In this document: positions 3,001-5,286 of the stretch, one piece after another
Layout: the number at the start of each line of letters is the position of its first letter
Position numbering within the stretch: position 1 is the stretch's first letter
From: a virus
Taxonomy: Duplodnaviria > Heunggongvirae > Uroviricota > Caudoviricetes
Virus record (IMG/VR): IMGVR_UViG_3300029079_000036
Reading direction: 5' to 3' (one strand)
DNA: 5,286 bases
Program-made: the position numbers

Positions 3001-5286
3001 GCCACTCTATCCCACCATGCCTGGTAGGCTTTACGCTGTTCTTCTAGATAATCGCTCTTGTCATAAACTTGCCATACACCTGGCAGTTTATGACCGAGCA
3101 TTATTTCAGCAATATGAGGCGCAGTAAGATCAGAAAAGTTTGTTCGTGCTGTTCGTCTCAAATCATGAAGAGACCAATGAGGAAATTGATACCCCAAACG
3201 CCGCCATGCGTACTGCATTAAATTGTAAGGCAGCGACTGCAATGATGTCCGACCAACTGGTTCCCTGCTTCCTTCCTTAGTAAAAAGCATATCGGAACCG
3301 TTGTTCATAGAGATAACGTATTTTATAAGCTCTTCAACCGGTTCAATAATGGGCCGCTTTAGCGGTTCGCCTGTTATATCCCCTGTCTTATGTCGTTCTG
3401 GTGGTACAGTCCATATCTTATTAATGAAATCAAAATCGTCCACCTTGGCAGTAATTAGCTCTGAACTACGGCAACCAAAATGAAGCAATAGTTTAATGAA
3501 GGCCCGGTATTTAGGAACCATTCGAGAACCATCGATCGCAGCATAAAGGATTTTAATTTCATCATGTGTCAGAAACCGTTTCTTCTGACCTTTACGGATA
3601 TCCATATCTTTACCCGTGATATCCGACAGCGGGCGAGTTTCAATGAGCTTTCTCTTATACGCCCAGACATGGGCCTGCTTTGCGTTAATTAGCAATCGGT
3701 CTGCTATTGCTGGAGTCTTAGTGCTAAGAGGCTCCAGGACTTCTAACCAATCATGCAATGTAGCTGCATCGTGAGGGATATTCCCGATTTTAGAGAACAG
3801 GTGCAGCTCGAACGAGCGGAGTATCTGTTCAGAACCTTTTTTATTTTTTACACAATATGCTTCATACCAGGCACGGATCACAGACTCTACCGTCATGGCT
3901 TCAGTAGCTTTTCGTTTTTCAGCCTGCTTGACCAATCGTGGATTACGGTTTGACTCGAGTTCACCACGGAGACGGATAACTTCTTCTCTGGCCTCTTTTA
4001 ATCCAGTTGCCGGGTAAGTTCCGATATCAAGACGCTCACCTTTCCCTGCCCATTGATAACGATATTGGAACACTACGCGACCTTTCGGTGATACTCTGAC
4101 AGACAGACCATCACGATCGGATTTAACCAAAACCTTATCACGTTCCTTTCCAACGACTGAACGCAACCACGCATCAGACAGCGCCATTACTCACCTTGTA
4201 CAAATCGCAAAACACCTCTGCTGCTTTGTACATTATGTACAAGCATATGTACAGATTTTTGATGAAAGCAACCTGATCGATTTAAAGTTACATGAAAGAA
4301 TTTTCAATTAAAGAAGTCACATAACCAAATGTATTTAAATGAGTTATATAGCTCGACCTCAATTAACTGAAAGGATTTTGAAAGAGTGAAAGAGCTTTAA
4401 TTTGGACTTAATTATTGGGGTGAGAAATAATTGCAAAGGTTCTTCTTTTCGCTACCTCTGCGGCCAAAAGGCTTGTCATAATTGTTGTCTCTTTGATTAT
4501 GTACAATCATATGTACAAAGAAAAATTCATGCCGCTGATTGTACATTTTGGAGGTATCAGAGCATAGCAGAACATGATCAGTAGGTGTATTTGTAGCCAA
4601 AGAACATTTGTATATGCAGCAATCTTTGCTCTATTGACACTGTTTATTCATACAGTTAAAAATAACACTGTATACAAACACAGTGTAGAGGGATTTTTAT
4701 GCGTATTGAGATCTGCATAGCCAAAGAGAAAATGACTAAAATGCCAAACGGTGCTGTGGATGCGTTAAAGGAAGAATTAACTCGACGCATCAGTAAGCGT
4801 TATGACGATGTAGAGGTGATCGTAAAAGCCACCAGCAACGATGGCCTTTCTGTTACGCGCACCGCCGATAAAGATTCAGCTAAAACTTTTGTTCAGGAAA
4901 CTCTGAAAGATACCTGGGAGTCTGCTGACGAGTGGTTTGTTCACTAATTAGCACGTAAAATCAGTAACGGCTGGAAATCATTCAATACTCGCACTATCGA
5001 AAGTTAACCAGCCAGCCGCAGTATCCTATCATGACAAGTTACTGCGGCTTTTTACTTTTTATATTTAACGGATCAACATCCAGATCAGCAGACACGGCAC
5101 CACCGGCACAGCAAAATCCATCAGGCTTGCCACATCCCACGCGCGCGGATCAAAACCGCCCCACCACGGCATATTCATTCGCTTGCCATGCCCGAACATT
5201 TCAATCCAGCGATATTCTGCCTGGGTGTGTTCCCGCGCAATGAAGAACGTACAACCAGCTATCGCACCGTAAACCCAGTTTCCGGT

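What the first reader, a model, noticed from the sequence alone, without database searches (positions are those of the whole stretch)
4226..4549. Two clusters of TGTACA-based operator-like repeats upstream of the integrase
A 21 bp unit (TTATGTACAAGCATATGTACA, 4233-4253) recurs with one mismatch at 4497-4517, and a 9 bp unit TTGTACATT occurs at 4226-4234 and 4539-4547. Six copies of the self-complementary hexamer TGTACA are concentrated in about 320 bp, including a 17 bp near-perfect palindrome at 4226-4242. This is far more than chance for a hexamer. The first cluster overlaps the expected integrase promoter. The arrangement resembles either arm-type integrase binding sites of an att region, or paired operators for a dimeric HTH regulator that could loop the DNA between the integrase and the DinI-like gene.
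Basis: seen in the sequence. Interest (0 to 1): 0.55.

Follow-up and report, generated by a model that had tools for sequence, protein, structure and literature searches.

The report
Integrase arm sites flanking phage attP
The TGTACA repeats are most likely the accessory ("arm-type") docking sites that a prophage integrase uses on both sides of its attachment site in the host gene prfC, which is an ordinary kind of feature, though the motif itself appears not to have been described for this integrase family.

Summary
The window holds seven TGTACA copies, one more than reported, and all lie in 4197-4545 (1.15 expected). The two clusters bracket the phage attachment site. The 14-bp attP/attB core is 4418-4431, inside a phage-borne surrogate 5' end of prfC (4408-4479, minus strand). 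Four copies sit on the int-side arm and three on the dinI-side arm.

The integrase has an N-terminal arm-DNA-binding domain (PF13356). In 14 further int-upstream regions from related elements (Int 50-98% identical, gamma- and betaproteobacteria) the same motif, (T/c)GTACA(T/a)A, recurs just upstream of int. It usually appears as a direct pair exactly 12 nt apart, while the surrounding DNA diverges. An SXT/R391 element (R997, Int 38%) carries TGTACAAA pairs on both sides of its prfC core. Gifsy-1-type phages (Int 46%, lepA target) carry GTCCAY in the same layout. Elements with other targets, or with an unrelated Xis, keep the motif.

Best reading (about 0.8): these are arm-type Int sites. Because cluster 1 lies 15-66 nt upstream of int, negative autoregulation is likely. 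That step is inferred by analogy with KplE1 and P4.

This is a new member of a known kind, of modest interest. No binding was tested.

The parts
2952..4187 (-). Tyrosine integrase, 411 aa, made of an arm-DNA-binding domain, a central domain and a catalytic domain. It is transcribed away from attP.
   Evidence: ORF. Pfam PF13356 (residues 3-90), PF22022 and PF00589. Residues 1-80 match the solved arm-type binding domains 3JTZ/3RMP and 3JU0. It is 95-99% identical to the Int of phages cdtI and 2H10 and of Stx phages at prfC.
4197..4202 (.). Arm-type site candidate 1 on the int-side arm (TTGTACAAAT). It lies 15 nt upstream of the int ATG and abuts the Shine-Dalgarno sequence AAGGTGAG.
   Evidence: An inverted copy at -14 to -31 is conserved in 11 of the 14 relatives.
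4227..4232 (.). Arm-type site candidate 2. It forms the perfect 17-nt palindrome 4226-4242 together with site 3.
   Evidence: It is conserved at the same offset in the 83%-identical Trabulsiella and Pantoea elements.
4236..4241 (.). Arm-type site candidate 3. On the int strand it reads CTTGTACATAAT. It is the proximal member of the 12-nt-spaced direct pair and contains a -10-like CATAAT.
4248..4253 (.). Arm-type site candidate 4. On the int strand it reads TCTGTACATATG. It is the distal member of the 12-nt-spaced pair.
   Evidence: None of the 24 hexamer columns varies among 23 distinct E. coli-type arms, against 58 of 221 columns outside the hexamers.
4263..4392 (+). Five same-strand TGAAAG copies (4263, 4293, 4368, 4379, 4387) between the arm sites and the core. 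They are candidate sites for Xis (the recombination directionality factor) or a bending protein.
   Evidence: Five copies within 130 nt were reached by 0 of 2000 shuffles. Two or three CTTTCA copies are kept in the otherwise diverged Trabulsiella and Pantoea arms. The protein that binds them is inferred only.
4410..4432 (.). Candidate core-type Int sites: the inverted repeat AATTATT / AATAATT around a 9-nt spacer, GGGGTGAGA.
   Evidence: Read from the sequence. Inference only.
4418..4431 (.). Common core GGGTGAGAAATAAT, identical in attP, attB, attL and attR. On the minus strand it covers the prfC codons for Ile-Ile-Ser-His-Pro.
   Evidence: Alignment of attP (window, cdtI), attR (UTI89, Stx2c phage), attL (WWCOL-256) and attB (K-12). 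Coordinates. A 14-bp 'duplication due to insertion' is annotated in LC727876.
4408..4479 (-). Phage-borne surrogate 5' end of prfC (MTSLLAAEVAKRRTFAIISHP, then NN-stop in the free phage). After integration it is fused to the host prfC body.
   Evidence: Translation. In lysogens the annotated prfC start codon corresponds to window 4479.
4500..4505 (.). Arm-type site candidate 5 on the dinI-side arm, 20 nt upstream of the surrogate prfC ATG. It is a member of a 12-nt-spaced pair.
   Evidence: It is retained in attL of lysogens. The equivalent pair lies 18 nt upstream of the surrogate prfC ATG in the SXT/R391 element R997.
4512..4517 (.). Arm-type site candidate 6, the second member of the dinI-side pair.
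4540..4545 (.). Arm-type site candidate 7, the outermost one. It forms an 11-nt perfect inverted repeat with 4499-4509.
   Evidence: and (I5, D5).
893..1087 (+). Excisionase (Xis), 64 aa. It is the partner recombination directionality factor of this integrase.
   Evidence: PHROG 1553 'excisionase', E 7e-36. Weak HTH_17 match. Annotated as excisionase in phage cdtI.

Best explanation
The window carries the intact attP of a cdtI-like lambdoid phage that integrates into the 5' end of prfC. The seven TGTACA-centred sites, consensus (T/c)GTACA(T/a)A, are arm-type binding sites for the N-terminal arm-binding domain of the phage's bivalent tyrosine integrase. Four sites lie on the int-side arm, 165-221 nt from the core. 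Three lie on the dinI-side arm, 69-114 nt from the core.

The inferred mechanism is as follows. Int molecules bound to these sites reach the core-type sites at 4410-4432 with their C-terminal domains. The intervening AT-rich DNA would be bent by host factors and, for excision, by Xis. The resulting recombination complex recombines attP with prfC. After integration, cluster 1 stays with int in attR, and cluster 2 goes to attL, directly upstream of the surrogate prfC start.

Cluster 1 occupies the 66 nt upstream of the int ATG, so Int occupancy probably also represses int transcription. This is negative autoregulation of the kind shown for KplE1 IntS and P4 Int.

Shown here: the att anatomy, the domain content, and the comparative conservation. 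Inferred: binding, bridging and autoregulation.
For: 1. The clusters flank a core defined by all four att forms, by a deposited 14-bp duplication annotation, and by exact coordinates.
2. Int has PF13356 Arm-DNA-bind_3 at residues 3-90, and this region matches solved arm-binding domains 3JTZ and 3JU0.
3. Comparative footprint: in 15 loci with Int 50-100% identical, from Escherichia, Trabulsiella, Pantoea, Xenorhabdus, Serratia, Morganella, Shewanella, Vibrio, Pseudomonas, Alcanivorax, Acidovorax and Thiodiazotropha, TGTACA density is 26.7 per kb in the 100 nt upstream of int and 0.03 per kb in the other 65 kb. Twelve of the 15 loci have a direct pair exactly 12 nt apart, and another has a 12-nt pair whose orientation is ambiguous. 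Flanking DNA is not conserved.
4. Both arms carry the motif in independent attPs. These are the window and cdtI, the SXT/R391 element R997 with Int 38%, a circular Morganella phage, and the Gifsy-1-type phage SW-37, where the motif is GTCCAY in the same arrangement of two direct and two inverted copies next to int plus a pair on the other arm.
5. The motif follows the N-terminal domain and not the target. Elements that do not insert in prfC (L176, L197, L304) keep TGTACATA. The N-terminal 90 residues are always more conserved than the rest, for example 57% against 33% for R997.
6. The Xis proteins of the window and R997 show no similarity.
7. Within E. coli variants, 0 of 24 hexamer columns vary, against 58 of 221 other columns.
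8. Precedent for autoregulation: in KplE1 the arm-type sites overlap the intS promoter, and in P4 Int also represses int by direct DNA binding near the int transcription start.
Against: No binding or recombination data exist for these sites, either here or in the literature I could search. For the 50-98% relatives only the int-side arm was available, so conservation on both arms rests on four attP types. No sigma-70 consensus promoter was found on the minus strand, so the promoter overlap rests on position alone. No IHF consensus matching at least 8 of 9 positions was found in 4188-4630. The hexamer is palindromic, so the orientation of some sites is ambiguous. The int-side sites lie farther from the core (165-221 nt) than those of lambda.
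Confidence: 0.8

Rival explanations
1. The repeats are operators for an element-encoded HTH protein: Xis (the recombination directionality factor) or another regulator. It would bind as a dimer to the palindromic TGTACA units and loop the int-dinI intergenic DNA to control int and dinI.
For: TGTACA is self-complementary, and 4226-4242 is a perfect 17-nt palindrome. An HTH excisionase is encoded at 893-1087. In KplE1 and P4 the directionality factor also represses int, by DNA binding in KplE1 and probably by mRNA binding in P4.
Against: The motif is shared with R997, whose Xis has no detectable similarity to the window's. It is also shared with elements in many genera that have different neighbours. 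Known binding sites for directionality factors are direct repeats on one arm only; this rests on established knowledge and on the Gifsy-1 tripartite site. The sites sit on both arms around a recombination core. The dinI module has its own promoter and LexA boxes and is exchanged independently from 4631 on. The same-strand TGAAAG repeats are better Xis candidates.
Confidence: 0.07
2. The repeats are promoter elements that are duplicated because each arm carries a promoter, Pint on one arm and the surrogate prfC promoter on the other. They would have no role in recombination.
For: The 22-nt unit precedes a minus-strand start codon in both copies, int by 45 nt and the surrogate prfC by 17 nt. It contains a -10-like CATAAT. 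The pair lies 18-20 nt upstream of the surrogate prfC ATG in both the window and R997.
Against: The two hexamers of a pair are only 6 nt apart, which is too close for a -35/-10 pair, and no promoter passes the scan on that strand. Additional inverted copies, and in R997 two further pairs far from any start codon, are not explained. The Gifsy-1 branch changes the hexamer to GTCCA while keeping the architecture, which fits a change in protein specificity better than RNA polymerase recognition. This rival is also compatible with the main explanation, because arm sites overlapping a -10 are documented in KplE1.
Confidence: 0.06
3. The repeats are sites for a host DNA-binding protein, such as a response regulator that recognises direct repeats, or they are a chance or duplication remnant.
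For: The direct pair with a fixed 12-nt period resembles tandem-repeat recognition by OmpR/PhoB-type regulators (own knowledge). The 22-nt repeat could be a simple duplication.
Against: The motif is always next to an integrase of one clade, in hosts from gamma- and betaproteobacteria. It is about 870 times denser there than in flanking DNA and is absent from the empty prfC site. Chance is excluded. Hexamer columns are invariant while their surroundings vary.
Confidence: 0.03

Closest known systems
Phage lambda attP arm-type sites (P1, P2, P'1-P'3) bound by the N-terminal domain of Int
   Same: A bivalent integrase is involved. Short repeats distinct from the core lie on both arms, with closely spaced direct copies on one arm. 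An accessory-protein region lies between arm sites and core. The arm sites are partitioned into attL and attR after integration.
   Different: There are seven candidate sites here instead of five. The motif is different, (T/c)GTACA(T/a)A. The spacing is 12 nt. The arm-binding domain belongs to the DUF4102/PF13356 type. Here int is transcribed away from attP, so one arm is also the int upstream region. The core lies inside a protein-coding gene whose 5' end the phage replaces.
KplE1 (CPS-53)/HK620/Sf6 IntS-TorI module and satellite phage P4 Int: integrase genes whose own product represses them through binding sites near the int promoter (PMC2951348)
   Same: The gene layout is the same, with int reading away from att and its upstream region inside the recombination arm. 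The integrase is of the same broad subgroup (PF13356 N-terminal domain). One arm site contains a -10-like sequence, as P'1 does in KplE1.
   Different: The KplE1 arm sites share a TAAA motif, not TGTACA. KplE1 targets a tRNA gene. Here neither the promoter nor any repression has been mapped.
SXT/R391 integrative conjugative elements (Int-SXT, integration into the 5' end of prfC; Hochhut & Waldor 1999, cited via PMC8138268 and PMC5812530)
   Same: They use the same target codons of prfC, and the element supplies a surrogate prfC 5' end. Published phylogeny places the integrases in the same 'SXT cluster'. R997 attP carries TGTACAAA pairs, 12-13 nt apart, on both sides of the core, and one pair lies 18 nt upstream of the surrogate ATG.
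   Different: Int is only 38% identical. In R997 int is not adjacent to attP through its 5' end and xis lies between them, so the autoregulation geometry is absent. The Xis proteins are unrelated. The element is a conjugative element, not a phage.
Gifsy-1 site-specific recombination system (Int, Xis, 14-bp core; PMC2603039)
   Same: Int is 46% identical (through SW-37, which is 97% identical to Gifsy-1 Int). The core is also 14 bp. The element inserts in the 5' end of a paralogous translational GTPase gene and supplies a surrogate 5' end. The repeat architecture is the same: two direct and two inverted copies next to int, plus a 12-nt-spaced pair on the other arm.
   Different: The target is lepA. 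This comes from my own knowledge and from the MKNIRNFSIIAHID translation. The hexamer is GTCCA(C/T) rather than GTACA. Xis is a 94-residue protein. Only the Xis sites have been mapped experimentally.

Membership tests
attP of a bivalent (arm-binding) tyrosine integrase, with the repeats as arm-type sites | The integrase has an N-terminal arm-DNA-binding domain in addition to the core-binding and catalytic domains. | tested here: met
   PF13356 at residues 3-90, E 2e-16, plus PF22022 and PF00589. Match to solved arm-binding domains 3JTZ and 3JU0.
attP of a bivalent (arm-binding) tyrosine integrase, with the repeats as arm-type sites | A short core is shared by attP and attB, and recombinant attL and attR junctions exist. 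| tested here: met
   The 14-bp core 4418-4431 is shared by attP, attB, attL and attR. The same duplication is annotated in LC727876. 699 E. coli genomes carry the attR form.
attP of a bivalent (arm-binding) tyrosine integrase, with the repeats as arm-type sites | Repeats unrelated to the core sequence lie on both arms within a few hundred bp of the core. | tested here: met
   Four sites lie 165-221 nt on one side of the core and three lie 69-114 nt on the other. TGTACA is absent from the core.
attP of a bivalent (arm-binding) tyrosine integrase, with the repeats as arm-type sites | The repeat motif is conserved together with the integrase across diverged elements and changes when the integrase branch changes. 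| tested here: met
attP of a bivalent (arm-binding) tyrosine integrase, with the repeats as arm-type sites | The Int N-terminal domain binds the repeats directly, and the repeats are required for recombination. | not testable with these tools
   This needs gel-shift or footprinting assays and attP mutagenesis.
IntSXT subgroup, 'SXT cluster' (elements targeting the 5' end of prfC) | Insertion in the 5' end of prfC, with the element supplying a replacement 5' end. | tested here: met
   In lysogens prfC starts at window 4479. The other junction abuts the native prfC start and yjjG.
IntSXT subgroup, 'SXT cluster' (elements targeting the 5' end of prfC) | Integrase homologous to SXT/R391 Int and carrying the DUF4102-type N-terminal domain. 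| tested here: met
   38% identity over 402 residues to R997 Int, E 4e-88. Published phylogeny groups cdtI Int with SXT Int.
Negatively autoregulated integrase genes (KplE1 intS / P4 int type) | int is transcribed away from att, so that its upstream region lies inside the recombination arm. | tested here: met
   The int ATG is at 4187 on the minus strand, sites lie at -15 to -66, and the core is 231 nt upstream.
Negatively autoregulated integrase genes (KplE1 intS / P4 int type) | A mapped promoter physically overlaps Int sites. | tested here: inconclusive
   No sigma-70-like site was found on the minus strand at the scan's threshold. Only a -10-like CATAAT inside site 3 is visible.
Negatively autoregulated integrase genes (KplE1 intS / P4 int type) | Int represses its own promoter. 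| not testable with these tools
   This needs a reporter fusion with and without Int.
Operator pair of an HTH repressor with DNA looping | A cognate regulator is conserved together with the operator sequence. | tested here: not met
   The only candidate, Xis, has no similarity to the Xis of R997, which shares the motif. Neighbouring genes differ among the loci that share the motif.

The most novel reading that the evidence does not exclude
In lysogens the dinI-side TGTACA pair ends up 18-20 nt upstream of the element-supplied start codon of the host release-factor gene prfC. This placement is shared by this phage and by the SXT/R391 element R997, although Int is only 38% identical. Int may therefore act as a transcriptional regulator of the hybrid prfC gene, and not only of int. 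That would couple host translation-termination capacity to the integration or excision state of the element. More broadly, TGTACAwA may be a shared arm-site code for a whole clade of PF13356 integrases in phages and conjugative elements, independent of their core target.
Probability: 0.2. Interest if true: 0.55.

Novelty: new member of a known kind. Interest (0 to 1): 0.3.

Why it matters
Arm-type sites decide the directionality and efficiency of integration and excision. For the integrase clade that mobilises cdtI- and Stx-converting phages at prfC, Gifsy-1 and the SXT/R391 resistance elements, I found no description of these sites in the searchable literature.

A conserved, easily recognised motif, (T/c)GTACA(T/a)A in 12-nt-spaced pairs, has three uses. 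It gives testable binding sites. It helps to delimit such elements in genomes. It also marks where Int could repress its own gene and possibly influence the hybrid prfC gene.

The principle itself is textbook biology, so the finding is useful but not surprising.

Tried and rejected
1. Two scans of viral contigs, one with the Int protein and one with a six-member Int alignment, returned only 94-99% identical E. coli phages. They gave no diverged relatives.

2. A motif-first scan of viral contigs for GTACATA-N5-GTACATA was noisy. Only 5 of 120 loci had a related integrase next to the match. Those five were informative.

3. Three papers that might describe Int sites could not be consulted. Flanigan & Gardner 2007 and Asakura 2007 are not held. 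Hochhut & Waldor 1999 was seen only as a citation. I therefore cannot exclude that the repeats were noted there.

4. Text searches for TGTACA with integrase and attP, and for SXT with prfC and arm-type, found nothing relevant.

5. An IHF consensus scan of 4188-4630, requiring at least 8 of 9 positions, found nothing.

6. The promoter scan found no minus-strand promoter for int or for the surrogate prfC.

7. A control locus with the same dinI module next to a dusA-type integrase has a different gene layout. It shows only that the modules are exchangeable, not a motif swap.

8. The KplE1 arm sites have a TAAA motif, so they give no direct experimental precedent for TGTACA.

9. The 60-62 codon ORFs across attP (4402-4584 plus strand, 4412-4600 minus strand) were rejected as genes. 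They cross the recombination core in frames other than the prfC surrogate.
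Full report
**The observation**

The window contains seven TGTACA hexamers, at 4197, 4227, 4236, 4248, 4500, 4512 and 4540, and none anywhere else. The expectation is 1.15 per window, and no dinucleotide shuffle out of 200 reached seven. The chance of seven or more in 349 nt is about 3e-12. TTGTACATT at 4226 and 4539 is also confirmed. The 17-nt element 4226-4242 is a perfect palindrome around a central base.

**What the region is**

The window is a piece of a cdtI-like lambdoid phage. It holds DUF551 genes, an excisionase at 893-1087, two cargo ORFs of unknown function, an integrase at 2952-4187 on the minus strand, a 511-nt intergenic region, and a DinI-like gene at 4699-4947. 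It is 95-96% identical to phages 2H10, cdtI and Ayreon, where int and dinI are contiguous as they are here.

In E. coli chromosomes the two halves are separated. Window 4418 onward lies directly next to prfC, and the annotated prfC start codon corresponds to window 4479 on the minus strand. Window positions up to 4459 are followed by the native prfC upstream region and yjjG in 699 genomes.

I aligned attP (window, cdtI), attR (UTI89, an Stx2c phage), attL (WWCOL-256) and attB (K-12). The common core is GGGTGAGAAATAAT, at window 4418-4431. This equals the 14-bp 'duplication due to insertion' annotated in LC727876.

The phage carries a surrogate 5' end of prfC, MTSLLAAEVAKRRTFAIISHP, at 4479-4417 on the minus strand. 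In the free phage the short ORF runs on to a stop codon at 4408. The surrogate replaces the host 5' end on integration. The window is therefore in the attP configuration. TGTACA cluster 1 lies 165-221 nt from the core on the int-side arm, and cluster 2 lies 69-114 nt from it on the dinI-side arm. After integration cluster 1 stays in attR and cluster 2 in attL.

**Who binds the sites: evidence from the integrase**

The integrase has Pfam Arm-DNA-bind_3 (PF13356) at residues 3-90, followed by the central and catalytic domains. Residues 1-80 match the solved arm-type binding domains of the HPI and HAI7 integrases, 3JTZ/3RMP and 3JU0. An integrase of this kind is expected to have arm-type sites on both sides of its core.

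**Who binds the sites: comparative evidence**

I collected int-upstream regions from relatives with Int 50-98% identical. They come from E. coli, Trabulsiella, Pantoea stewartii, Xenorhabdus, Serratia, Pantoea agglomerans, Shewanella, Pseudomonas, Vibrio, Acidovorax, Alcanivorax, a Thiodiazotropha metagenome-assembled genome, a viral contig and a circular Morganella phage.

- Eleven of the 14 abut the prfC codons RRTFAIISHP.
- In the 15 loci (14 relatives plus the window), TGTACA density is 26.7 per kb in the 100 nt upstream of int. It is 0.03 per kb, two copies in total, in the remaining 65 kb.
- Forty-six oriented sites give the consensus (T40/C6)GTACA(T32/A11)A44.
- Twelve of the 15 loci have a direct pair exactly 12 nt apart, and most have an inverted copy 14-31 nt before the ATG. 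The DNA between and around the sites is not conserved.
- Among 23 distinct E. coli-type arms, none of the 24 hexamer columns varies, against 58 of 221 other columns.

**Both arms in independent attPs**

- The SXT/R391-family element R997 has Int 38% identical over 402 residues. It carries TGTACAAA pairs 12-13 nt apart at three places. One pair lies 18 nt upstream of its own surrogate prfC ATG, and two lie on the other side of the core.
- The Morganella phage has a pair at -59/-47 and a single copy at -311. It also has a divergent DinI-like gene, as in the window.
- Salmonella phage SW-37 has an Int 97% identical to Gifsy-1 Int and 46% identical to the window's. It carries a surrogate 5' end that reads MKNIRNFSIIAHID. 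From my own knowledge this is the LepA N-terminus and the known Gifsy-1 target. There the repeats are GTCCA(C/T), with two direct and two inverted copies next to int and a 12-nt-spaced pair on the other arm. Six of the seven copies in the 4.2-kb locus lie within these 290 nt.

The architecture is therefore kept while one base of the hexamer changes along with the integrase branch.

**Discriminating between candidate binders**

The motif follows the N-terminal domain, not the target and not Xis.

- Three elements that do not insert in prfC (L176, L197, L304) keep TGTACATA pairs.
- The N-terminal 90 residues are more conserved than the rest in every comparison: 57% against 33% for R997, 74% against 49% for L176, and 66% against 45% for L304.
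- The excisionases of the window and R997 have no detectable similarity.
- The dinI module from 4631 on has its own consensus-like promoter and two LexA-type boxes. It occurs next to unrelated integrases elsewhere. A regulatory loop joining int and dinI is therefore not indicated.

**Mechanism**

What is shown: the att anatomy, the domain content and the conservation pattern.

What is inferred: Int N-terminal domains bind the seven sites while the C-terminal domains bind core-type sites. A candidate for these is the inverted repeat AATTATT/AATAATT at 4410-4432. The AT-rich arm would be bent by accessory proteins. Five same-strand TGAAAG copies at 4263-4392 form a significant cluster, with 0 of 2000 shuffles reaching five in 130 nt. 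They are partly conserved in the 83% relatives and are the best candidates for Xis sites.

Cluster 1 fills the 66 nt upstream of the int ATG, so Int probably represses its own transcription. This was demonstrated for KplE1 IntS, where an arm site overlaps the -10 box, and reported for P4 Int. No consensus promoter was detected on that strand here, so this step rests on geometry and precedent.

**Comparison with what is known**

Integration of phage cdtI and SXT elements at prfC is published, as is the grouping of their integrases in the 'SXT cluster' of the IntSXT subgroup. The Gifsy-1 system has a 14-bp core and a mapped tripartite Xis site, and its authors describe the recombination system as otherwise uncharacterised. 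I found no description of TGTACA-type arm sites for this clade. However, three potentially relevant papers could not be read. The feature is therefore a new, computationally well-supported member of a well-known kind.

**Verdict**

The arm-type-site reading is supported at a confidence of about 0.8, and the operator-and-looping reading is not supported. Interest is modest (0.3).

The least ordinary point is that one arm-site pair sits 18-20 nt upstream of the element-supplied prfC start codon in both the phage and the SXT/R391 element. This leaves open that Int occupancy influences expression of the hybrid host gene. That idea was not tested, and I put its probability at about 0.2.

Noticed in passing
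window 4634-4683: Two tandem LexA-box-like sites (CTGT-N8-ACAG) lie at 4640-4655 and 4668-4683. They overlap or follow a consensus-like promoter, TTGACA at 4634 with an 18-nt spacer and AAAAAT, upstream of the DinI-like gene. This suggests SOS control. The module from 4631 on also occurs next to unrelated integrases, for example a dusA-type one.
   Followed up: partly
window 4408-4479; L012 1255-1300: This integrase clade targets the same G1-motif codons in the 5' ends of paralogous translational GTPase genes. The window and SXT/R391 target prfC (FAIISHP), and Gifsy-1/SW-37 targets lepA (FSIIAHID). In each case the element supplies a surrogate 5' end.
   Followed up: partly
window 4263-4392: Five same-strand TGAAAG copies lie within 130 nt between the arm sites and the core, which 0 of 2000 shuffles reached. 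Two or three CTTTCA copies are kept in the 83%-identical Trabulsiella and Pantoea arms. They are candidate excisionase or bending-protein sites.
   Followed up: partly
window 1720-2876: Two overlapping low-GC ORFs (248 and 137 aa) with hydrophobic stretches lie between xis and int. They have no Pfam or PADLOC match and hit only PHROGs of unknown function. This position is a variable cargo slot: phage cdtI has a 2.1-kb orf33 there and UTI89 has a 1-kb gene.
   Followed up: partly
window 4402-4600; L005 6403-6606: The 60-62 codon ORFs spanning attP, one of which is annotated as orf31 'hypothetical protein' in phage cdtI, cross the recombination core in a frame other than the prfC surrogate. They are probably not genes.
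   Followed up: no
L255 (viral contig), about -300 and -45 to -15 relative to int: An integrase only 32% identical to the window's has AGTACA(T/G)A pairs, 12 nt apart, in two clusters about 250 nt apart upstream of int. GTACA-type arm sites may therefore extend beyond the SXT cluster.
   Followed up: no
NZ_CP019281.1 (E. coli 13P484A, 33.7-kb circular record): Among 5426 complete E. coli assemblies, this was the only one of the 30 best-ranked records in which int, attP and dinI are contiguous as in the window. It is presumably an excised or circular phage genome deposited as a plasmid.
   Followed up: no
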